Below, piece after piece: positions 3,357 through 60,811 of a stretch of DNA of 64,000 nt. The DNA comes from a phage. Below the pieces are notes generated by a model, which saw only the letters and a program-made list of their open reading frames with translations, had not been told where the DNA came from and did no database searches. Numbering within the stretch: the stretch's first letter is position 1; every line of letters starts with the position of its first letter. The stretch lies in assembly GCA_025677605.1 (NCBI GenBank), contig GCA_025677605.1_4110.1; one strand, written 5' to 3'. Position numbers and translations under genes: made by a program.

Positions 3357-3523
3357 GTGTATTTTCCTTTTGTTGGATAAAAAACTAGGTTTATATTATA
3401 ACCAATCCGTTGGCAAAAGTAAAGGAACTGTGTTAAAAGTATTTTAACTTATCAGTTCCTTATCTTCAGTGAATCATCCGTGTGTTTAAAAAGGTCAATC
3501 TTGTTTGCCGTCTTGATGTGGTC

Positions 3524-3551
3524 ATTATATCACATCGTTCAGGCTTGTCAA
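3524..3551 (-). promoter_or_regulatory. consensus sigma70 promoter P-A1: TTGACA-N16-TGaTATAAT
   Basis: Minus strand: -35 TTGACA (3546-3551), 16-nt spacer, -10 TATAAT (3524-3529) with extended TG; A-rich UP-like tract upstream; about 170 nt upstream of the AAA+ ATPase start. Confidence 0.6.
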
Positions 3552-3616
3552 CAACTTTTTTTCTTTCTTTTTCAATCTCACATCTTGTGATTTTGAAATC
3601 TTGCTTCGTGACGTTC

Positions 3617-3644
3617 ATTATATCACGTTAATCTGTACTGTCAA
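3617..3644 (-). promoter_or_regulatory. consensus sigma70 promoter P-A2: TTGACA-N16-TGaTATAAT
   Basis: Minus strand: -35 TTGACA (3639-3644), 16-nt spacer, -10 TATAAT (3617-3622); shares the 12-mer GTGATATAATGA with P-A1, 93 bp away. Confidence 0.6.
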
Positions 3645-3708
3645 CATCTTTTTCATTTTTATTTTCGAAGCGTTCTACATATGCATCGAAAATAACTGCT
3701 TGAAATCA

Positions 3709-4053
3709 TCACCGACACAATGTTAATTCAGTAACTACCATTGCGTCGGAGAGATATATGTAGTAGCCATCAACATAATAAGGACTTCTACATATTCTAT
3801 CAAGCGATGTAAATATTATAGAGCTTTTGAACTCTCTTAGCAAGGGGATTTTTGTAAATTCATAAAGATTATTTTCTTCACAAATCATAAATCCATACTT
3901 ACTAAGCCTCAAACCACCACCAGTTCTGAAGTTTTCAAAAATAGACATCAGAAGCATTCTGTCAGTGATTTCAGCGTCCGATTCATGTACTTCTTTAACT
4001 TTTATAAGTACTTCATTTTGAAATTCAGTGCTGTTAGTGGGTTGTGGTATCAT
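3709..4053 (-). CDS. hypothetical protein (114 aa)
   Basis: ORF in track; co-oriented and tightly packed with neighbours. Confidence 0.45.
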   Translation of the reverse strand: MIPQPTNSTEFQNEVLIKVKEVHESDAEITDRMLLMSIFENFRTGGGLRLSKYGFMICEENNLYEFTKIPLLREFKSSIIFTSLDRICRSPYYVDGYYIYLSDAMVVTELTLCR

Positions 4054-4055
4054 AA

Positions 4056-4457
4056 TTACATCCCCACAAAACCTTGTCTGGCAGCATAAGAAGGAGCATC
4101 TTTAACTTTATAGCTACGATGACCTTCACTGTCAACTTTAGGAGCCATATCTTCAGTACCGAAATCTTCTTCAATTTCTTTAGTACTGTCTTTTGCTTCT
4201 AAGTCATCATTATATTCCACATCTGCCAAAATGTCACATGCTTTTTTAAGTTTTTCTGCGATTTCTTTATGGTCAGAACCTTCTTCTTTTGCTTTATCAA
4301 CTAAAGCAACTAAAGATGTAGTGATTTCCTTTAGTAAATCAACGATAACGTTGTCCGAATCTTCTTGGACAACGATACCATTTTCTTCTTGAGGAACTTC
4401 TTCTTCTGCCATAATCGCATCTAGTGATTCCACTAGTTCACGATAGTTGTATGACAT
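4056..4457 (-). CDS. acidic hypothetical protein (133 aa)
   Basis: ORF in track; strongly D/E-rich composition. Confidence 0.5.
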   Translation of the reverse strand: MSYNYRELVESLDAIMAEEEVPQEENGIVVQEDSDNVIVDLLKEITTSLVALVDKAKEEGSDHKEIAEKLKKACDILADVEYNDDLEAKDSTKEIEEDFGTEDMAPKVDSEGHRSYKVKDAPSYAARQGFVGM

Positions 4458-11694: not shown

Positions 11695-11840
11695 TAATTA
11701 ATTCTCCTATTAGGAAATGAGATCTTTATATTATTTATAAAAATTAACATACTTTATGTAGTACTTAATGATATGTTTTATCTATAGGGAACCAATCCAT
11801 ATTAATACAATATGTGTACTGGAATTCACCAGTATATAGC

Positions 11841-12011
11841 TTAAACCTTACACCGAACTGACCATCTGCCATTTGTATAAGCAGAAAAATCACTCACAAT
11901 ACCCACATCTTTTAATACTTCCATTAAGGCTTCTATAAGATTTTGGGCTTCTTCTTGTGATTCTGAATTAAAGGCCAATTCTTGCAGGATACTTTTAATT
12001 ATTTCGTCCAT
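11841..12011 (-). CDS. small hypothetical protein (56 aa)
   Basis: Unlisted ORF (below track size cutoff): ATG at 12011 with GAGAGGGA RBS, in the 395-bp gap between sheath and tube genes. Confidence 0.3.
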   Translation of the reverse strand: MDEIIKSILQELAFNSESQEEAQNLIEALMEVLKDVGIVSDFSAYTNGRWSVRCKV

Positions 12012-12054
12012 ATATCCCTCTCACCTTACTGAATATATGGTATTTAATTTAAAC

Positions 12055-12081
12055 AATAAAAAAGGGAACCATATGGTTCCC
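12055..12081 (-). terminator. rho-independent terminator after the sheath gene
   Basis: Perfect 7-bp stem GGGAACC/GGTTCCC with ATAT loop, 8 nt after the sheath stop, followed by UUUUUU on the minus strand. Confidence 0.6.
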
Positions 12082-12089
12082 TTAGTGTG

Positions 12090-24058: not shown

Positions 24059-24065
24059 ATTTTAC

Positions 24066-24269
24066 CTATAAATGTACATATATGTTTTTATTTTCAATAC
24101 GAACATATGTTTCCAAAACATCTTTTGGAATTTTATTACTTGTTTTGTACCATGTAGTATTATCTACTAAAACAAAAGTTTCACCGTCAGTTTCACCAAA
24201 TGTACTCAATGCATAAATGAAGTAATTTGGTGCTGCACTACAATAGATATCAGCATTAATTTCAATCAT
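24066..24269 (-). CDS. hypothetical protein (67 aa)
   Basis: ORF in track. Confidence 0.35.
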   Translation of the reverse strand: MIEINADIYCSAAPNYFIYALSTFGETDGETFVLVDNTTWYKTSNKIPKDVLETYVRIENKNIYVHL

Positions 24270-24272
24270 ATT

Positions 24273-24407
24273 TTACACCACTACAAAGCTTAACACAACT
24301 AATGTAATAAACACACCGACAATGGCGGTCATTTCTGGATTTGCATCATAAGTGTAGCGAATACACTTAACAAAATCCGATCCAAATTTCTTTAATCCTT
24401 TCATCAT
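24273..24407 (-). CDS. small membrane protein (44 aa)
   Basis: Unlisted ORF: ATGATG at 24407 with AAGGAAAAA RBS; hydrophobic C-terminal helix. Confidence 0.3.
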   Translation of the reverse strand: MMKGLKKFGSDFVKCIRYTYDANPEMTAIVGVFITLVVLSFVVV

Positions 24408-24456
24408 TTTTTTCCTTTTTTAACATCAAACATAAAGACTTCTACGTATACCACGG

Positions 24457-29288: not shown

Positions 29289-29705
29289 TTATTTGATCAG
29301 AAATGTAAATTCGGGATTCATATCTCTTATTACTGAATTACGTCTTCTATCCCATACAACTTTACTAAAATACTCGGAGTCATCACATACTATCAGTATA
29401 CAATTCCTAAGAGAACTCGTTGTGTAAGTACTTAAATCATTTTCTGTAATGAAATGAACATTCCTGTTGACTTGTACTGGATAATCTCGTTTAAAAAACA
29501 AAACTACTATAGGTCTTTCAGTACTCAATGCATTAATAAATTCAATTACACTATCATAGATTTCAGTACGGATATTATTAGTTTTTATTGTACTTATGTA
29601 ATTCTGTTTAATTCCGTACTCTTCATTGATTTGATACTCAAAAAACTTTTTAAACAATTCTTTGGTTAAATCAGATGAATTTTTAATATTCGTTGCGTTA
29701 CTCAT
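29289..29705 (-). CDS. hypothetical protein (138 aa)
   Basis: ORF in track. Confidence 0.4.
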   Translation of the reverse strand: MSNATNIKNSSDLTKELFKKFFEYQINEEYGIKQNYISTIKTNNIRTEIYDSVIEFINALSTERPIVVLFFKRDYPVQVNRNVHFITENDLSTYTTSSLRNCILIVCDDSEYFSKVVWDRRRNSVIRDMNPEFTFLIK

Positions 29706-29846
29706 TCACTTCGTTCTCTCGTAACTCAAGAATTCGTTTCGTTATCTACGATAACTCACTCATTCATATTAATTAATATTGTATTGTACTTTTAAAGATT
29801 GACGGGATTTGTTGAGGACATTTTCATCCCCCCGCAGGGGAATGAT

Positions 29847-29872
29847 ATTAAAAAAGAACCAATGAAGGTTCT
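29847..29872 (-). terminator. rho-independent terminator
   Basis: Minus-strand hairpin AGAACC-UUCAUU-GGUUCU followed by UUUUUU. Confidence 0.45.
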
Positions 29873-30389
29873 TGATTTTGACGCTGATGGCATCGGAATT
29901 TATCGAATTGCGAATTTCTCCATATTTTGGACGGATCAAGGGTGTCCAATTTTTGGAGAACGAAAGCGGGTTGCTCTGTTTCTCTCTATCGCAGTCATAT
30001 GCAACGGTCGCAGGTATTTTCATCCCCTGCACTAAAGTACTGGAACTATTCGATCAATTCAGTACTCGTTTTACTCAAATTTTGGGTGCAACTTTCCCGT
30101 AGAAAAATTGACCGCTTGTTTTAAGTAAAACTCCCTTAGCAAATCTGGTAAGGTGCGATCCTTATACATCTATCGAGGAACTCTCTGTATGCTTATCGGA
30201 GTTCTTTATTGAGCCGTGTCGCCGTGTGATCCGTGTCTTATTTCGCGTTTGTATGAATGCACTTGGATGGTACTAACGGGTTTCTTTTGCTCATCGCCTC
30301 AGTGGGAAGGCTCATCTATCCTTTACATTTTCAAGAGAAGTAGGTTCTTCTTGTCCGTTGTTAAAACGTCCACTGACATTTTCCATTAC
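29847..30389 (-). ncRNA. candidate promoter-to-terminator transcript without a convincing ORF (structured RNA or leader)
   Basis: Bounded by the promoter at 30396-30423 and the terminator at 29847-29872; GC-richer than flanks; strong hairpin 29824-29845; three ACACGG repeats (minus strand) at 30203-30228; only short or overlapping ORFs. Confidence 0.3.
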
Positions 30390-30395
30390 AATATA

Positions 30396-30423
30396 ATTAT
30401 AGCACAATATAAAGTATTGTCCC
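30396..30423 (-). promoter_or_regulatory. sigma70-like promoter: AATTGGGACA-N16-TATAAT
   Basis: Minus strand: -35 GGGACA (30418-30423), 16-nt spacer, -10 TATAAT (30396-30401); begins right after the stop of CDS 30426-30839 and points into the ORF-poor region. Confidence 0.45.
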
Positions 30424-30425
30424 AA

Positions 30426-30839
30426 TTACATATAAACTTTTTTCAATTCTTTGCTGCTTCGTTCAAATACTGTTTCAATGAACTCAATATCCTGAAGAAG
30501 CTGAAGAGTACTGGCATCTGTCTCATTGCGTGACACATTTCTGTACTTTTGTTCAGGGTGATTGAATACCACCTTGACTACACTATTTAGGTCTACAAAA
30601 TTTGACGTTTTTTTCGTATAGGAAGCCTGAAGCTTAATATACTTCCCATTATCTTGTAGATTAGTTTTATGAATTAGTTCTTCAATACCTGTAAGATGTA
30701 AATAACTATCTTCTTCTTTGACAAATGTAATAGTTAACAGTACTGTCTTTTCGTCTCCCATGTCAGAGATATTTTTCACAGCACTAACAATTTCTAAGTT
30801 TGAAAAATCTAAATCTTTAAGCATTACACATATTTCCAC
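30426..30839 (-). CDS. hypothetical protein (137 aa)
   Basis: ORF in track. Confidence 0.4.
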   Translation of the reverse strand: MEICVMLKDLDFSNLEIVSAVKNISDMGDEKTVLLTITFVKEEDSYLHLTGIEELIHKTNLQDNGKYIKLQASYTKKTSNFVDLNSVVKVVFNHPEQKYRNVSRNETDASTLQLLQDIEFIETVFERSSKELKKVYM

Positions 30840-31233: not shown

Positions 31234-31845
31234 TTACTCATGTTTATCCAACAGCTTTTGTGCCTTTTTTAATGCTTTCATGTGTCGCCCGTACTCACGA
31301 ACATGCCACAGATGATCGTTATCCCATAGCTCTTGACGCAATCTACGTTCTTCGAGCATTTCTGGTGTAGGACGTTTACTTTCCTTCTCAATCTTATTGA
31401 AATAACGATTCATATGTTCTTCAAGAAGATTACGTCCCTTCACTTTATCAAGAAATTCATCAACTGTTTCAGTTTTATTTGAACGCAACTGATTACATCT
31501 CGCACACATAGTATTGAAGTTTGACTCCAAATCAGCACCACCTTTAGATGCAAGATGATTATGATCTACAGTCATCATAACTTCATAAAGACCACATACT
31601 GCATACACATTTAAATGCGGTTTACCATATACCGGATCACTACAGTTAGAACGTTCGATTCGAACTTCTGTAGCCTCGATGCCACAAGCAACGCACTTAC
31701 AATTCTTAACGAATGTTAGTACTTTTTGTGGAAAGTATCTGAAAGTAATACCATTATAAGTATAACGTTTCATTTTGGTACTAGTATGATTGAGTTCATC
31801 TAGTAAACTCAATTTGGTTACATAATAAACATGATATTTAGACAT
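31234..31845 (-). CDS. HNH endonuclease (free-standing, homing-endonuclease-like)
   Basis: HNH core TVDHNHLASKGG...NFNTMCARCN with a Cys-rich zinc-binding region; 203 aa. Confidence 0.7.
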   Translation of the reverse strand: MSKYHVYYVTKLSLLDELNHTSTKMKRYTYNGITFRYFPQKVLTFVKNCKCVACGIEATEVRIERSNCSDPVYGKPHLNVYAVCGLYEVMMTVDHNHLASKGGADLESNFNTMCARCNQLRSNKTETVDEFLDKVKGRNLLEEHMNRYFNKIEKESKRPTPEMLEERRLRQELWDNDHLWHVREYGRHMKALKKAQKLLDKHE

Positions 31846-49084: not shown

Positions 49085-49210
49085 TTCACATTCCTTGTAT
49101 GTTATTCGTTTGGGTGAATTTATTTAACTTCAACAAAGAGCATTATAGCCTCATATTGGCCTTTTTCTCTTGACCTAAATCAAGGAAAAGTGCAATTGAT
49201 TAAGTACTGT

Positions 49211-49240
49211 ACAAACACAAAAAGCACCACTTGGGTGCTT
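49211..49240 (-). terminator. rho-independent terminator
   Basis: 7-bp stem AAGCACC/GGTGCTT, followed on the minus strand by UUUUGUGUUUGU; between CDS 49319-49504 and nrdD. Confidence 0.45.
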
Positions 49241-49318
49241 TTATAGAATAGACAAAATAACAACTGACCAGATTAGCATAACATATAAATTGCAATTGCA
49301 CTGCAACCAATGAATAGT

Positions 49319-49504
49319 TTAATTAGTCTCATCTGGACTCCATGTAATAGTTACAGTAAATGTACCTTCCTGGAATCCATACTCATCTTGTGGAATTTGA
49401 GCAACTAATGGATTGAATCTGGAATTAAACGCTTCATGTACATCACGTTGGATATCACAGATACTTTCACCATCATATTCTTTTTTAAAAATTTCAATCT
49501 GCAT
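49319..49504 (-). CDS. hypothetical protein (61 aa)
   Basis: ORF in track. Confidence 0.35.
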   Translation of the reverse strand: MQIEIFKKEYDGESICDIQRDVHEAFNSRFNPLVAQIPQDEYGFQEGTFTVTITWSPDETN

Positions 49505-51474: not shown

Positions 51475-51496
51475 AGTTTATATCCCATTACGTCTT

Positions 51497-51730
51497 TCAT
51501 TGAGCATCCTTTGGGACTGTTGTTAAGCGTTTGCGGTTAACAATTTTGCGACACATAAGATTTAGATCCTGTCCGTGACGCATCTCATGACAGGCATAGA
51601 GTGTGCCATTATGATTCAGTTTAGTTAAGTCCTTACGGATCATTTCTGCATCCATCTCGTTAACTTTAGGTGCACAGCCTACGAGTAAGGTTGCCCCAGC
51701 AACTAAACAAGAAATGATAATCTTTTTCAT
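51497..51730 (-). CDS. small lipoprotein (77 aa)
   Basis: Signal peptide with lipobox LVGC. Confidence 0.45.
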   Translation of the reverse strand: MKKIIISCLVAGATLLVGCAPKVNEMDAEMIRKDLTKLNHNGTLYACHEMRHGQDLNLMCRKIVNRKRLTTVPKDAQ

Positions 51731-51733
51731 GAA

Positions 51734-51919
51734 TTAATCCTCTTTGCAAATGTATTGTAATTTTGTTTCACCATTAATGACATACATCTGATTACTTTCT
51801 AGTAAACAGTTATCTGGTGCTTCTTCAAACACTGAATAGTATTGTGTACTGTATTTAAAGTCCATTAGTGAACAAGATGATATTAACATTAATACTAATA
51901 CATATGCAAGTCTTTTCAT
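51734..51919 (-). CDS. small lipoprotein (61 aa)
   Basis: Signal peptide with lipobox ISSC. Confidence 0.4.
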   Translation of the reverse strand: MKRLAYVLVLMLISSCSLMDFKYSTQYYSVFEEAPDNCLLESNQMYVINGETKLQYICKED

Positions 51920-51937
51920 GATTATTTTCCAATGTTT

Positions 51938-54313: not shown

Positions 54314-54326
54314 AGTTTACCACCAA

Positions 54327-54354
54327 TAAAAAATCCCTGCCAATTGACAGGGAT
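54327..54354 (-). terminator. rho-independent terminator
   Basis: Perfect 7-bp stem ATCCCTG/CAGGGAT with 8-nt loop, followed on the minus strand by UUUUUUAUUGG. Confidence 0.5.
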
Positions 54355-54457
54355 GAAAAACTTACTGAAATAACACATGGAGTTCTTTTTAAATTCATAA
54401 AAAGTATTATTATTCTTATGAAAGTATTTATTAAGAACTCCAAAAAAACGCGTTAAA

Positions 54458-54646
54458 TCAAAAACCTTTTTGTGCAACCAGTTCACGATATTGTGCACGT
54501 GTTAGTACACCTTGCTTACGTAGAGACTGAAGCCCACTTAAAGTTTCAGCTTTACGTAGCTCATAAGTGCGTTGTTCTTTGGATTGAATAACTTTCACTT
54601 TTTTAACTTTAACTTCTGGTTCTTTTTTCTTAGGTTGTTTAGCCAT
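54458..54646 (-). CDS. small basic protein, possible nucleic-acid binding (62 aa)
   Basis: K/R-rich N-terminus (MAKQPKKKEPEVKVKKVKV); RBS GAAGGAAG before ATG at 54646. Confidence 0.45.
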   Translation of the reverse strand: MAKQPKKKEPEVKVKKVKVIQSKEQRTYELRKAETLSGLQSLRKQGVLTRAQYRELVAQKGF

Positions 54647-54714
54647 GATTTACTTCCTTCTTCGATAATGGTGTGTTCATTATAGCAATGAACACATTTA
54701 ATGTCAATAATAGA

Positions 54715-59430: not shown

Positions 59431-60036
59431 TTATTGAATGATTCCCCATTTAACGAGATCTGATCTTCGTAATACAACGATATCCTCACCATGTTTAGTA
59501 CTGATATCAATGAGTGTTTCAGCGGGGATACCGTTATGTGCGTACAGTGTAAAAAGATACCCAACTTTAGTTGAGACTTGATGTGTAAACTCCATCAACT
59601 GTCTAACTGAAACGAATGTCGTATCTGGATCTGCACCATTCGTAGATACTAGTGAGATGTTATGTAAACCCATCACTGCGGTATCACTCATATCCCTACG
59701 TTCAGATGATGCAGAGAAAAAAACCAGACTACAAGACGAATTACATTGCTTTGGGACATAAACAGTTAACTTTTTAGCAGCCACAAAAAATCCCAAATCT
59801 AATCCTGCATCAAAATCTCCACCAGGTGATGTTATTGTTATAATTTTAAATCTTGTTTCTTTCCACAACTTCTTCACTTCTTGTACAGTTTCATCATTTA
59901 GTTCACCATCAATTGACACAACATGTTCATTTAATAGAAAAACAGATGATTTTTTTGAAACTTCTGCCGCTGCCGGAAAGTTTAATGCAGCGATTAAAAC
60001 AACGGTTTGTACAATCTCTTTCAAGATTCGTTTCAT
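59431..60036 (-). CDS. exported ClpP/S49-like serine peptidase
   Basis: Signal peptide (…LIAALNFPAAA-EV) then ClpP-like ITITSPGGDFDAGLDLGFF block; GAGG RBS before ATG at 60036. Confidence 0.5.
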   Translation of the reverse strand: MKRILKEIVQTVVLIAALNFPAAAEVSKKSSVFLLNEHVVSIDGELNDETVQEVKKLWKETRFKIITITSPGGDFDAGLDLGFFVAAKKLTVYVPKQCNSSCSLVFFSASSERRDMSDTAVMGLHNISLVSTNGADPDTTFVSVRQLMEFTHQVSTKVGYLFTLYAHNGIPAETLIDISTKHGEDIVVLRRSDLVKWGIIQ

Positions 60037-60164
60037 TGATTACCTCGGATTTGAGTTAAGGAACATAAATAATAGTACAATAATTGATCAATTATGTCAA
60101 GTGCAAAACTGAACAATTATGACTGTAGTATCAAGTGTTTTTGTTAAGTTCATTGATTTACCAA

Positions 60165-60193
60165 TTGACCATTTGAACTATGGTATCATATTG
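60165..60193 (+). promoter_or_regulatory. candidate promoter for the plus-strand island (TTGACC-N16-CATATT)
   Basis: Good -35 but weak -10, in the divergent intergenic region; low confidence. Confidence 0.25.
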
Positions 60194-60234
60194 GGAGGCA
60201 GTTTACAATCCCATTTTTAAGGTAAGGAGATGTT

Positions 60235-60750
60235 ATGAAACCAATAGCTGGCTTAGATCAATTTCCATTTGTTATAGGTGGATTGCAGGTTACTGCTGCA
60301 AAGATAGAAGGGCAAGTATTTGTTAAAGAATTGTATGTTATAAAACAAAGAACATTCGATTCATATGATTTAATATCTGAAAATTTCAAGATTTACAAAG
60401 ATATAAAAATCACAGGTAGAAATAAAGATAAATCAACATTGTTGTATGATGATGACGATGCTGAAATTGCTAAATCTTTAGCAAATAATACATTTTGCAT
60501 AAAAGAAGCTGATGCTATTAATAATAAGTATGGTTTTGGTATTCAATATCAAAGTAATAAAATAAAATTACATAATGGTGAAATAATTTTCAGAAGAACG
60601 AACGTGGAGCCAAATTCGTTGTCTAAAGTTATAATAAAGCCAGATGATTTTGTTCTTTATTCAAATGATAAAATGCAATTCACTGCTTACTTCTCTCCGA
60701 AAGATTGGCCTGACCAAACCAGATTTCCACCGTATGCTCGTTTCCAATAA
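60235..60750 (+). CDS. hypothetical protein, paralogue 1 of the plus-strand island (171 aa)
   Basis: RBS AAGGAG 6 nt before ATG; N-terminal approximately 130 aa paralogous to 60855-63023 and 63081-63455; followed by a terminator. Confidence 0.55.
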   Translation: MKPIAGLDQFPFVIGGLQVTAAKIEGQVFVKELYVIKQRTFDSYDLISENFKIYKDIKITGRNKDKSTLLYDDDDAEIAKSLANNTFCIKEADAINNKYGFGIQYQSNKIKLHNGEIIFRRTNVEPNSLSKVIIKPDDFVLYSNDKMQFTAYFSPKDWPDQTRFPPYARFQ

Positions 60751-60788: not shown

Positions 60789-60811
60789 TCCTAAAATACT
60801 TTTGGTATAAT
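60783..60811 (+). promoter_or_regulatory. extended -10 promoter (TTTTAA-N17-TGgTATAAT)
   Basis: TGgTATAAT at 60803-60811, about 40 nt upstream of the ATG at 60855. Confidence 0.4.

What the first reader, a model, noticed from the sequence alone, without database searches (positions are those of the whole stretch)
29706..30425. Promoter-to-terminator ORF-poor structured locus (candidate ncRNA)
In an otherwise gene-dense genome this 720-bp stretch has no convincing protein gene. It is framed by a promoter (AATTGGGACA-N16-TATAAT, 30396-30423) and a terminator (29847-29872), and is visibly GC-richer than its flanks. It contains a strong hairpin (minus strand CAUUCCCC-UGCG-GGGGGAUG, 29824-29845), a related repeat (TTTTCATCCCC at about 29820 and about 30018) and three ACACGG repeats at 30203-30228. 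The only long ORF (84 aa from ATG 30023) runs straight through the terminator hairpin.
Basis: seen in the sequence. Interest (0 to 1): 0.6.

Follow-up and report, generated by a model that had tools for sequence, protein, structure and literature searches.

The report
New large structured RNA, jumbo phages
The gene-free gap holds a gene for a large, intricately folded non-coding RNA from a previously undescribed family; every RaK2-like giant phage carries several copies and an E. coli defence island has captured one, but its function is unknown.

Summary
The window is an Escherichia phage A4-like jumbo phage (Asteriusvirus). The gap 29706-30425 encodes, on the minus strand, a ~540-nt RNA (domain D1). 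D1 has a conserved extended -10 promoter and an intrinsic terminator. An invariant 3' box and a second ~70-95-nt structured domain (D2) follow, so the element reaches ~29697.

I collected 35 non-redundant full-length homologs from phages of Escherichia, Salmonella, Klebsiella, Cronobacter, Pectobacterium, Erwinia, Serratia, Yersinia and Xanthomonas, plus metagenomes. Each genome has 2-5 dispersed paralogs in conserved slots.

A 55-pair model with a pseudoknot is 96.8% paired, against 82% in shuffles and 39-43% in slid controls. 34 pairs show compensatory changes. No reading frame is conserved. No Rfam 15 family, tRNA/tmRNA model or searchable paper matches.

An intact copy is the sole cargo in a variable slot of an integrase-bearing defence island in 2 of 5,426 E. 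coli genomes.

Function is unknown. Best guess: an abundant trans-acting folded RNA (RNP scaffold, RNA-only assembly or ribozyme). Rivals: replication-origin primer RNA, or an anti-defence RNA. Expression has not been shown experimentally.

The parts
30418..30425 (-). -35-like element TTGGGACA, of the family consensus TGRRACR
   Evidence: site; all 35 members listed. It matches the 'TGAAACG' -35 promoter class described for CBB and GAP32 in PMC5259590.
30396..30404 (-). Extended -10 promoter element TGCTATAAT
   Evidence: TATAAT/TATACT is present in 35 of 35 members and the TGn extension in 31 of 35. TGNTATAAT is enriched in the window, 19 sites against 7.3 expected.
29850..30389 (-). Domain D1: predicted ~540-nt structured RNA. 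The transcription start (~30389) is inferred from promoter spacing; the 3' end is taken as the end of the terminator U-run.
   Evidence: HMM hit covers 30425-29784. Fold z = -3.15 on the minus strand against -1.75 on the plus strand. Covariation model.
30364..30381 (-). P1, a 5' hairpin (AAAUGUC-AGUG-GACGUUU). Predicted only.
   Evidence: Centroid fold. Most members have a 5' hairpin here, but the sequences cannot be aligned.
30316..30343 (-). P2 hairpin with a bulge and the conserved loop GAAAAYGUA
   Evidence: 8 pairs, 7 of them with changes on both sides, 95% of cells paired.
30296..30311 (-). P3 hairpin (GCC...GGC), preceded by the invariant junction AGAUGAG
   Evidence: 100% paired; pair types UA:18, CG:11, AU:6.
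30210..30293 (-). Long-range helix P4 (30293-30289 with 30214-30210). It encloses P5 (30279-30276 with 30225-30222) and a variable insert.
   Evidence: P4 is 98.3% paired with 4 of 5 pairs compensated. In L030 and L019, P5 is closed by a UUCG tetraloop where other members have the insert.
30178..30204 (-). P6 hairpin (GAACUC...GAGUUC) with the conserved loop AUAAGCAUA
   Evidence: all pairs have changes on both sides, with 3-4 pair types per position.
30149..30164 (-). P7 hairpin (UAAGG-AUCGCA-CCUUA)
   Evidence: UAAGG/CCUUA, UAAG/CUUA and UGAG/CUCA in different members.
30068..30139 (-). Invariant junction CUAAGGGAG (30139-30131) followed by the variable-length arm P8 (30131-30068)
   Evidence: P8 ranges from 4 bp plus a GAAA tetraloop, through 8 bp plus GAAA, to ~65 nt in A4. 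It always starts right after CUAAGGGA.
30035..30067 (-). P9 hairpin. Its loop bases 30054-30048 (AUCGAAU) form the 5' strand of pseudoknot PK1.
   Evidence: 7-13 bp stems of different sequence in all members. helix 7.
29902..29908 (-). 3' strand of pseudoknot PK1 (AUUCGAU)
   Evidence: 7 of 7 pairs have changes on both sides and 99.6% of cells are paired. Also compensated in RaK2.
30010..30030 (-). P10 hairpin (GCAGG-GGAUGAAAAUA-CCUGC).
29961..30010 (-). Near-invariant core CGACCGUUGCAUAUGACUGCGAUAGAGAGAAACAGAGCAACCCGCUUUCG. It contains helix P11b (29986-29982 with 29966-29962) and the possible H-type pseudoknot PK2 (GUUGC 30005-30001 with GCAAC 29974-29970).
   Evidence: P11b is 99.4% paired, with A-U, G-C, C-G, U-G and G-U at one position. 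PK2 is invariant in 35 of 35 members and so cannot be tested.
29916..29960 (-). P12 (UCUC...GAGA) with the optional inserted hairpin P12a
   Evidence: 4 of 4 pairs compensated. Length varies from UCUC-GUAA-GAGA up to ~45 nt.
29880..29894 (-). P13 hairpin (GAUGC...GCGUC)
   Evidence: 91% paired; only one-sided U-G to C-G changes.
29850..29873 (-). Intrinsic-terminator-like hairpin AAGAACC-UUCAUU-GGUUCUU followed by a U-run
   Evidence: The stem covaries. Present in 28 of 35 members.
29799..29844 (-). Invariant 3' box: hairpin CAUUCCCC-UGCG-GGGGGAUG (29844-29825) plus tail AAAAUGUCCUCAACAAAUCCCGUCAA (29824-29799)
   Evidence: GGGGGAU and the AAAYSNCKUCA tail are present in 35 of 35 members. The box is unique in the window. 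1-nt indels exclude a micro-ORF.
29697..29765 (-). Domain D2: hairpin GUUAUC-GUA-GAUAAC (29755-29741) and hairpin GUUAC...GUAAC (29725-29697). The second loop carries the conserved GAACGAAGUGA and overlaps the ATG (29705-29703) of ORF 29289-29705.
   Evidence: a conserved, covarying ~95-nt fold downstream of the 3' box in all syntenic slots. A4 has a rearranged variant.

Best explanation
The gap holds a stand-alone gene for a large structured non-coding RNA. The RNA belongs to an undescribed family that RaK2-like jumbo phages carry in 2-5 dispersed paralogs.

Shown here:
- The DNA is conserved across at least six genera, while flanking genes differ or are not conserved at the DNA level.
- No reading frame is kept.
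- The minus strand folds into about 13 helices plus a pseudoknot. These are maintained by compensatory changes, helices of variable length, and GNRA or UUCG loop caps.
- Long unpaired stretches are invariant.
- A sigma70-type extended -10 promoter with a TGRRACR -35 precedes every copy. A hairpin with a U-run follows in most copies.
- An invariant 3' box and a second small structured domain come next.
- The module is self-contained. An intact copy is the only cargo in a variable slot of an E. coli defence island.

Inferred:
- Host RNA polymerase transcribes the gene at the early or middle stage of infection, giving an abundant ~540-nt RNA. Read-through may give a longer form that includes the 3' box and D2.
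- The RNA acts in trans as a folded molecule. It could be the scaffold or subunit of a ribonucleoprotein, an RNA-only assembly of the ROOL/GOLLD kind, or a ribozyme.
- The invariant single strands and the 3' box would be the contact or active sites.
- The island copy would then interfere with infecting phages as a decoy, or be used by the island in some other way.

I put about 0.93 on 'genuine structured ncRNA gene family' and about 0.4-0.45 on the trans-acting mechanism. The score given is for the combined statement.
For: Identity and spread:
- The window is 99.4-99.9% identical to phage A4.
- The gap DNA matches 72 phage records, with 2-5 places per genome.
- 121Q copies lie at about 193, 247 and 327 kb.
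- There are 35 non-redundant full-length members.

Structure:
- RNAalifold predicts 76 pairs, 24 of them compensated.
- A curated 55-pair model is 96.8% paired, against 82.0 +/- 0.5% in shuffles (0 of 500 reach it) and 39-43% in slid controls.
- 278 cells are changed on both sides against 76 in shuffles. The covariation score is 0.419 against 0.151.
- PK1 is compensated at 7 of 7 pairs.
- Variable arms were checked copy by copy.
- Frequent G-U pairs and fold z-scores of -3.15 against -1.75 fix the strand.

Not coding.

Not a known family. No literature.

Not a cis-acting leader: in one syntenic slot the RNA converges on the baseplate hub gene.

Promoter and terminator statistics. Promoter class: PMC5259590.

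Island copy:
- nhmmer E = 1e-135.
- 52 of 53 model pairs are formed at only 80.6% identity to the nearest phage copy.
- It is the sole cargo between backbone segments shared with a sister island.
Against: - There are no expression data for any member. The transcription start, the 3' end and the abundance are all inferred.
- Nothing identifies a protein partner. No gene family accompanies all copies.
- The invariant 3' box lies after the terminator. Its conservation is not explained by base pairing, so it could equally be a DNA-level site.
- Conserved genomic slots, several dispersed copies and an A+T-rich spacer after the box (78% against 64% for the window) would also suit a cis-acting role.
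- The shuffle control ignores relatedness, and the structure was derived from these same sequences. The slid controls and the number of independent pair types are the stronger support.
Confidence: 0.6

Rival explanations
1. Cis-acting replication origin. The promoter makes a folded primer RNA, as with the ~555-nt ColE1 RNA II or the R-loop transcripts of T4 oriF/oriG. Its 3' part (U-run, G6 run, invariant box) forms a persistent RNA-DNA hybrid next to an A+T-rich unwinding region. The several copies are the phage's several origins. The E. coli island would carry one so that an infecting phage's replisome replicates it.
For: - There are 2-5 dispersed copies per genome in conserved slots. T4 has at least five dispersed origins that use early or middle promoters and R-loop primers (PMC3016281).
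- The promoter belongs to the TGAAACG class, found mainly upstream of DNA-synthesis genes in CBB (PMC5259590).
- The invariant box after the U-run is conserved as sequence rather than as pairing, and is followed by a 78% A+T spacer.
- One slot lies beside the recombination endonuclease, endonuclease VII and baseplate hub genes, at a change of transcription direction.
- The island copy sits where the sister island has a repeat-rich non-coding region, and it is followed by three TTATCGATCG repeats.
- D1's length (~540 nt) resembles that of ColE1 RNA II (from memory).
Against: - T4 origins share no sequence motif, and their R-loops need no specific sequence or RNA fold. Here about 13 helices, a pseudoknot and invariant loops are under selection.
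- A hairpin with a U7 terminator directly upstream of the supposed hybrid site would stop most primer transcripts (28 of 35 members).
- The window copy lies in a uniformly minus-strand gene block with no change in skew.
- No initiator gene is linked to the copies.
Confidence: 0.12
2. Conflict RNA. The RNA's primary job is anti-defence: a decoy, sponge or mimic that neutralises a host immune or RNA-binding component. RNA anti-CRISPRs that mimic CRISPR repeats are one known example. Alternatively, the RNA is itself part of a bacterial defence that the phages have copied.
For: - An intact, structure-preserving copy is the only cargo in a variable slot of an island that carries the PADLOC candidate systems PDC-M45 and PDC-S16.
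- The invariant 3' hairpin and its flank (UUCCCC...GGGGAUGAAA) resemble the base and 3' flank of the E. coli type I-E repeat (UUCCCC...GGGGAUAAAC, from memory).
- Weak CRISPR-DR hits overlap this hairpin.
- Several strongly promoted copies would suit titration of a target.
Against: - The CRISPR-DR hits are on the wrong strand, far below the gathering scores (17.8-23.1 bits against 39-40), and absent in eight other loci.
- A 540-nt pseudoknotted RNA is far more than a repeat mimic needs.
- The family is universal and anciently duplicated in the phages but present in only 2 of 5,426 E. coli genomes. That argues for a phage origin and a core phage function.
- No partner defence gene is linked to it.
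Confidence: 0.12
3. A ribozyme-type mobile element, for example a degenerate or free-standing group I-like intron or a self-cleaving RNA. It would have spread to several sites, helped by the homing endonucleases that are common in these genomes.
For: - The size, the pseudoknot, the GNRA loops and the invariant junctions are ribozyme-like.
- Several copies occur per genome, and an HNH endonuclease gene lies two genes upstream in the window.
- The module has moved into a bacterial island.
Against: - No group I, group II, RNase P or small-ribozyme model matches, even at E <= 10.
- Every copy is intergenic with its own promoter and interrupts no gene.
- The paralogs are old and syntenic rather than recently spread.
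- The GAUGAG...CGAA stretch departs from the hammerhead core at invariant positions (read directly from alignment A3).
Confidence: 0.05
4. A long cis-regulatory leader (attenuator or riboswitch) that controls the downstream genes through the terminator.
For: - The order promoter, structured RNA, terminator, co-oriented ORF holds in the window and in the GAP32/CBB slot.
- D2 overlaps the start codon of ORF 29289-29705 (and read directly from the sequence).
Against: - In the endonuclease VII / baseplate-hub slot the element is followed by a terminator and a convergent gene.
- Downstream genes differ between slots.
- In E. coli the element stands alone.
Confidence: 0.03
5. A protein-coding gene, or the remnant of one: the 87-aa ORF 29769-30032, or the small ORFs that various records annotate.
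For: - Open stretches of 79-97 codons cover the conserved core in several members.
- Many GenBank records annotate 'hypothetical proteins' here.
Against: - The frame anchored on the invariant core is broken by 1-nt indels in GAP32, CBB and L015.
- That frame closes right after the core in six members and lacks any start codon in eight.
- The annotated ORFs differ in strand, place and number between records.
- Substitutions follow base pairing rather than codons.
Confidence: 0.02

Closest known systems
ROOL and GOLLD RNAs (large 'ornate' bacterial and phage RNAs; Rfam families)
   Same: - Size is 500-800 nt, with many conserved helices, pseudoknots and conserved unpaired nucleotides.
- Both are often carried by phages or prophages.
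- Both are stand-alone genes with no known protein partner and unknown function. ROOL and GOLLD form RNA-only multimers in cryo-EM (bioRxiv 10.1101/2024.12.08.627333, listed).
   Different: - There is no sequence or structure match to either model.
- The hosts differ: enterobacterial and Xanthomonas jumbo myophages here.
- This family has 2-5 paralogs per genome, a bipartite D1 / 3' box / D2 layout, and no association with tRNA clusters (no tRNA in the window).
- Multimer formation has not been tested.
ColE1 RNA II and the T4 oriF/oriG origin transcripts (primer RNAs)
   Same: - A sigma70-type early or middle promoter makes an untranslated RNA.
- The length is similar to RNA II (from memory).
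- There are several dispersed loci per genome, as with T4's five or more origins. An A+T-rich stretch lies downstream.
   Different: - T4 origin transcripts have no conserved sequence or fold.
- This element has a terminator before the putative hybrid site, extensive covariation, and no linked initiator.
Group I introns of T4-like phages
   Same: These are phage-borne RNAs of a few hundred nt with a pseudoknotted core, GNRA loops, optional peripheral arms, and homing endonucleases nearby.
   Different: - This element is not inserted in a gene and has its own promoter and terminator.
- No Intron_gpI hit appears at any threshold.
- The helix order does not give the P3/P7 arrangement (read from the structure).
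ncRNA001-004 of Pseudomonas jumbo phage PA5oct (found by RNA-seq)
   Same: They are ORF-free transcripts of 236-619 nt in a jumbo phage distantly related to the RaK2 group. Two of them make up 1-5% of phage reads (PMC7318152).
   Different: - There is no detectable homology: nhmmer --max finds nothing and none of seven conserved core and 3'-box motifs of this family is present.
- No structure or family has been described for them.
RNA anti-CRISPRs (Racr; solitary CRISPR-repeat mimics in phages)
   Same: They are phage-encoded, promoter-driven RNAs. The invariant 3' hairpin loosely resembles a type I-E repeat.
   Different: - Racrs are repeat-sized, while this RNA is about 20 times larger.
- The Rfam CRISPR-DR hits are sub-threshold and on the opposite strand.

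Membership tests
Any Rfam 15 family (4227 covariance models, including ROOL, GOLLD, OLE, HEARO, raiA, RNase P, group I/II introns, 6S, tmRNA, riboswitches) | Match to the family's covariance model at or above its gathering score | tested here: not met
   0 matches in the whole 64-kb window. At E <= 10 on 29600-30500 there are only nine scattered hits of 15-23 bits, against gathering scores of 39-70. No hit under the element in eight ortholog and paralog loci at E <= 1.
tRNA / tmRNA | Cloverleaf or tmRNA architecture detectable by ARAGORN | tested here: not met
   0 genes in the window.
Group I intron | Inserted in a host gene, so that splicing restores an ORF or RNA | tested here: not met
   Every copy is intergenic between complete ORFs and has its own promoter.
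Group I intron | Conserved P3-P9 core with the P3/P7 pseudoknot and G-binding site | tested here: not met
   No Intron_gpI match. The supported pseudoknot joins the P9 loop to a strand 3' of P12.
Protein-coding gene | One reading frame maintained across homologs, with start and stop codons | tested here: not met
   Frame-breaking 1-nt indels in the most conserved block; open length varies from 14 to 97 codons; eight members have no start codon.
Structured non-coding RNA gene (generic) | Base pairs maintained by compensatory substitutions, beyond controls | tested here: met
   96.8% paired against 82.0% (shuffled) and 39-43% (slid). 34 of 55 pairs have changes on both sides. Covariation 0.419 against 0.151.
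Structured non-coding RNA gene (generic) | Own promoter and terminator, conserved in position | tested here: met
   -10 hexamer in 35 of 35 members, TG extension in 31 of 35, hairpin plus T5 in 28 of 35.
Structured non-coding RNA gene (generic) | A discrete transcript is detected | not testable with these tools
   No transcriptome for any RaK2-like enterobacterial phage was found.
Cis-regulatory leader / riboswitch | Always followed by a co-oriented regulated gene | tested here: not met
   Copies in the endonuclease VII / baseplate-hub slot are followed by a terminator and a convergent gene.
Primer-RNA replication origin (ColE1 RNA II / T4 oriF-G type) | Persistent RNA-DNA hybrid and initiation of DNA synthesis at the locus | not testable with these tools
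   Only circumstantial features are available: copy number, promoter class, and a 78% A+T spacer.
RNA anti-CRISPR (repeat mimic) | Recognisable similarity to a CRISPR repeat of the host's system, on the transcribed strand | tested here: not met
   The CRISPR-DR39, -DR37 and -DR57 hits score 17.8-23.1 bits (gathering scores 39-40) and lie on the plus strand only. They are absent in the other loci.

The most novel reading that the evidence does not exclude
The RNA is an essential, RNA-only functional unit of giant phages: a new ribozyme, a self-assembling RNA architecture, or a structured replication primer. It is important enough that bacteria have turned it against the phage. In this reading the E. 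coli island's lone RNA gene is a protein-free 'decoy RNA' defence that poisons the phage's own RNA-dependent process. That would be both a new class of large functional RNA and a new kind of anti-phage immunity.
Probability: 0.15. Interest if true: 0.92.

Novelty: categorically new. Interest (0 to 1): 0.8.

Why it matters
- Large, highly structured RNAs are rare, and new classes have repeatedly revealed new biochemistry.
- This family is large: about 540 nt plus a ~95-nt second domain, with 13 or more helices and one proven and one possible pseudoknot.
- It is found in every RaK2-like jumbo-phage genome searched, a group that includes phages being developed for therapy against E. coli, Klebsiella, Salmonella and plant pathogens.
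- It is kept in several anciently duplicated copies. This implies a core function that protein-centred annotation of these ~350-kb genomes (mostly 'hypothetical proteins') has missed. Many records currently annotate spurious ORFs over it.
- Its capture as stand-alone cargo in a bacterial defence island makes the function directly testable, by expressing the RNA and challenging with phage. It also hints at RNA-level phage-host conflict.
- With 35 diverse sequences and a covariation-backed model, the family is ready for an Rfam entry, chemical probing and cryo-EM.

Tried and rejected
- **A 5'-3' closing helix (GAUGAG with CUCGUC), suggested by RNAalifold.** Rejected: there are uncompensated changes in XbC2, L038 and RaK2 (alignments).
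- **RNAalifold's outer stem AGAG/CUCU around the core.** Replaced by P12 (UCUC with the downstream GAGA) and P11b, both of which covary.
- **Homology to the PA5oct RNA-seq ncRNAs.** None found.
- **A micro-ORF after the G-run (GGGGGGAUGAAAAUG...).** Rejected: 1-nt indels shift the frame while the nucleotides stay conserved.
- **The 3' tail as a general promoter or operator motif.** It occurs only once in 64 kb. A T4-type late promoter box after it is weak: 7 of 8 positions match in only 5 of 34 copies.
- **Hammerhead-like GAUGAG...CGAA.** The positions that are invariant in hammerheads vary here, and there is no Rfam hit.
- **GTAC enrichment as an RNA-specific motif.** It is genome-wide.
- **The 16-mer scan of genome contigs.** Most hits from the gapped-pattern metagenome scan were also chance.
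- **The 303-aa island protein as a partner of the RNA.** It belongs to the island backbone and also occurs without the RNA.
- **Phage origin of the island's flanking genes.** None found.
- **Plasmids.** No copy.
Full report

The window is 99.4-99.9% identical to Escherichia phage A4, a ~355-kb jumbo myophage of the genus Asteriusvirus in the RaK2-like group. The finding's interval is exactly the gap between two minus-strand ORFs, 29289-29705 and 30426-30839. Nothing longer than 87 aa is open in that gap.

GC content rises to 0.41-0.425 across 29800-30400, against 0.25-0.36 in the flanks.
- a -35-like TTGGGACA and a TG-extended TATAAT at 30425-30396;
- a hairpin with a T-run at 29873-29850;
- the hairpin CAUUCCCC-UGCG-GGGGGAUG at 29844-29825;
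- the 12-nt repeat at 29820-29831 and 30016-30027;
- the ACACGG repeats.

In a single sequence, promoter-like and terminator-like matches are no more frequent than chance. The case therefore rests on comparison with homologs.

**The element is conserved well beyond its neighbours, and it is multi-copy**

The gap DNA alone matches 72 phage records. Identity is about 79% in 121Q/PBECO4-type coliphages. It is 68-75% over ~500 nt in phages of Yersinia, Cronobacter, Xanthomonas, Erwinia, Serratia and Pectobacterium. A ~115-nt core matches in Klebsiella phages RaK2 and K64-1. Each genome has 2-5 matching places.

In every case the match lies in a 700-900-bp unannotated gap, or under small 'hypothetical' ORFs that differ between records in number, place and strand.

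Pattern scans of IMG/VR and metagenomes were filtered with an HMM of the family. Every true hit came from the RaK2-like phages or from long contigs, many of jumbo-phage size; 35 full-length members remain below 96% identity. 121Q carries copies at about 193, 247 and 327 kb. RaK2 carries two divergent copies, one of them annotated as ORF245.

The paralogs sit in at least three conserved slots. One slot, between endonuclease VII / recombination endonuclease and the baseplate hub gene, is shared by phages of several genera. The duplications are therefore old and each copy has been kept. No protein family accompanies all copies.

**It is not coding**

The longest ORF in A4 (29769-30032) covers the most conserved block, so I translated every homolog in the frame anchored on the invariant CGACCGTTGC.
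- The open stretch varies from 14 to 97 codons.
- GAP32 has a 1-nt deletion inside the block.
- CBB and L015 have a 1-nt insertion there, which changes the 'peptide' while the nucleotides stay the same.
- Six members stop right after the core.
- Eight members have no start codon.

The AUG-containing stretch after the G-run likewise carries 1-nt indels.

**It is a structured RNA on the minus strand**

RNAalifold on 18 sequences gave 76 pairs, 24 of them with compensatory double changes. I corrected that model by hand. Variable hairpins were checked copy by copy between invariant anchors. The well-aligned helices were then counted on the 35-sequence alignment A3.

For 55 pairs in 12 helices:

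| Measure | Observed | Shuffled | Slid |
|---|---|---|---|
| Cells forming a standard pair | 96.8% | 82.0 +/- 0.5% (0 of 500 reach it) | 39-43% |
| Pairs changed on both sides | 34 | 22.5 | 9-13 |
| Cells changed on both sides | 278 | 76 | 18-32 |
| Covariation score | 0.419 | 0.151 | <= 0.068 |

The architecture, with window coordinates in the parts list, is as follows:
- a 5' hairpin (P1);
- P2, with the conserved loop GAAAAYGUA;
- P3;
- the long-range helix P4, which encloses P5 and an optional insert (two members cap P5 with UUCG in place of the insert);
- P6 and P7;
- the invariant junction CUAAGGGAG, leading into arm P8, which ranges from 4 bp plus GAAA to ~65 nt;
- P9, whose loop pairs with a strand ~150 nt downstream to form pseudoknot PK1 (7 of 7 pairs compensated, 99.6% paired);
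- P10;
- a near-invariant 50-nt core containing P11b (A-U, G-C, C-G, U-G and G-U at one position), whose loop GCAAC is complementary to the invariant GUUGC upstream;
- P12, with an optional P12a;
- P13;
- a hairpin followed by a U-run.

The GUUGC/GCAAC pairing would make a second, H-type pseudoknot. It cannot be tested, because neither side ever varies.

The strand is fixed by three things. Promoter and terminator both point the same way. G-U pairs are frequent (for example 27 of 35 members at one P11b position) and would be C-A on the other strand. The fold z-score is -3.15 for the minus strand against -1.75 for the plus strand.

Two caveats apply. The shuffle control ignores phylogeny, and the model was derived from these same sequences. 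The slid controls and the many independent pair types are the more reliable support.

**The element is longer than promoter-to-terminator**

All 35 members have the -10 hexamer at the same position, and 31 have the TG extension. The -35 region follows TGRRACR. This is the 'TGAAACG' promoter class that Buttimer et al. described in CBB and GAP32, mainly upstream of DNA-synthesis genes (PMC5259590). TGNTATAAT sites are enriched in the window, 19 against 7.3 expected.

28 of 35 members have the hairpin plus U-run.

Downstream of it, every member has an invariant box: a C4/G4-6 hairpin with a variable loop, then GGGGGAUGAAAAU and a ...AAAYSNCKUCA tail. In the window this box is found only in the element. 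Its conservation is not explained by pairing. An A+T-rich spacer follows (78% against 64% for the window).

Then comes a second structured domain, D2. It has an outer helix GAAUU...AAUUC around a variable helix, an inner hairpin with the conserved loop RAACGAAGUGAR, and a second hairpin that covaries (for example UA:13, AU:9, CG:3 at one pair).

D2 is present in all slots, including those where the next gene is convergent. It therefore belongs to the element and not to a downstream 5' UTR. In A4, D2 is a rearranged variant at 29765-29697, and its second hairpin contains the ATG of ORF 29289-29705.

Whether D1, the box and D2 form one transcript or two cannot be decided without RNA data.

**Comparison with what is known**

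- No Rfam 15 family reaches its gathering score anywhere in the window.
- Permissive scans of the locus and of eight other copies give only scattered sub-threshold hits.
- ARAGORN finds nothing.
- The RNA-seq-defined ncRNAs of the distantly related jumbo phage PA5oct are not homologous.
- Full-text searches, by topic, by phage name and by the invariant sequences themselves, found no description.

In kind, the closest things are the large 'ornate' RNAs ROOL and GOLLD, which are also often phage-borne and of unknown function. There is no homology to them.

**An unexpected copy in E. coli**

Two of 5,426 complete E. coli genomes (LR-29-1 and EEC_W5) carry a full copy, with promoter, D1, terminator, 3' box and a D2-like stretch (nhmmer E = 1e-135). 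It lies in a 1.4-kb unannotated gap of a ~10-kb island inserted next to ffs.

The island holds:
- a tyrosine integrase split by IS3;
- a resolvase;
- the PADLOC candidate systems PDC-M45 (DuOB at 1e-58, DUF488 at 1e-69, together with an mSLOG-DUF4326 protein) and PDC-S16.

The copy is only 80.6% identical to its nearest known relative (Serratia phage BF, copy 1). It still forms 52 of 53 model pairs, three of them changed on both sides. It is therefore intact rather than decaying.

The island's protein genes have no relatives in RaK2-like phages. A sister island shares the backbone: the integrase, a 303-aa gene, and the region around a 118-aa gene. Where the E. coli island has ~1.1 kb that is essentially only the RNA element, the sister island has a 5.5-kb gene block.

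The RNA module is thus a self-contained unit that can be carried as sole cargo in a slot that otherwise holds a block of protein genes.

**Mechanism**

What is shown: this is a promoter-equipped, non-coding, heavily structured RNA gene family under strong purifying selection. It is independent of its neighbours, anciently duplicated, and transferable.

What I infer as most likely (about 0.4-0.45): an abundant, trans-acting folded RNA that works as an RNP scaffold or subunit, an RNA-only assembly, or a ribozyme. Its invariant single strands and 3' box would be the functional surfaces. The island copy would act as a decoy.

The main rivals are these:
- **A cis-acting origin whose primer RNA must fold (0.12).** Copy number, promoter class, the sequence-conserved box and the A+T spacer fit this. 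So does what is known of T4's five or more origins (PMC3016281). However, T4 origins need no specific sequence or fold, and a terminator precedes the putative hybrid site here.
- **An anti-defence or conflict RNA (0.12).** The island context and a loose resemblance of the 3' hairpin to type I-E repeats fit this. The only CRISPR-DR hits are sub-threshold and on the wrong strand.

Ribozyme-type mobile element, cis-regulatory leader and protein-coding readings are unlikely or contradicted.

**Verdict**

The locus turns out to be one member of an undescribed, widespread family of large pseudoknotted RNAs. Function and expression remain to be shown experimentally.

Noticed in passing
whole window 1-64000: The tetranucleotide GCGC is completely absent: 0 occurrences against 43.7 +/- 6.0 expected from dinucleotide shuffles. 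It is also absent from all 35 RNA family members from other phages. This suggests strong avoidance of a GCGC-specific restriction or modification system in this phage group.
   Followed up: partly
whole window 1-64000: GTAC is frequent across the whole window (7.0 per kb) and recurs in many hairpin stems. Within the family sequences it is about twice the dinucleotide expectation (160 against 67). It is not specific to the RNA element.
   Followed up: partly
window 29697-29725 and ORF 29289-29705: The start codon (29705-29703) of the 138-aa ORF downstream of the element lies inside the loop and 3' strand of the second D2 hairpin, directly after the conserved GAACGAAGUGA. Translation of this gene may therefore be coupled to the fold of D2.
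   Followed up: no
window 3357-3708, 11695-12089, 24059-24456, 49085-49493, 51475-51937, 54314-54714: These are further gaps of 350-460 bp with no ORF of 80 aa or more. The first holds two TGATATAAT sites on the coding strand, at 3524-3532 and 3617-3625. None is a copy of this RNA family. They were not examined for other ncRNAs.
   Followed up: no
L326:12950-13060 (E. coli LR-29-1 island, downstream of the RNA copy): Three closely spaced TTATCGATCG repeats, each containing GATC, lie in the non-coding stretch between the RNA element and the next gene. They look like iterons or operators.
   Followed up: no
L328:2197-2893 and 3719-4425 (sister island from a metagenome): Two ~700-nt non-coding gaps rich in AGTAC-containing repeats occupy the position where the E. 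coli island has the RNA element. They could be another non-coding element or the island's own origin or regulatory region.
   Followed up: no
L179:1367-1573 (RaK2 ORF245) and many GenBank records of this phage group: Annotated 'hypothetical protein' ORFs overlap the RNA gene and are probably spurious. Examples are RaK2 ORF245, 121Q gene 516, A4_511 and WPEC3 CDS461-464. In RaK2 the copy lies directly downstream of a putative sigma-factor gene.
   Followed up: partly
window 31234-31845: A free-standing HNH endonuclease gene lies two genes upstream of the element (Pfam HNH at 5e-5; annotated as HNH endonuclease in A4). No link to the RNA was found.
   Followed up: partly
window ~60100-60250: The coding strand switches from minus (nearly all ORFs from 203 to 60036) to plus (ORFs from 60235 onward). 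TGNTATAAT sites on both strands lie nearby, for example 59836-59844 (+) and 60803-60811 (+). This is a divergent transcription point.
   Followed up: no
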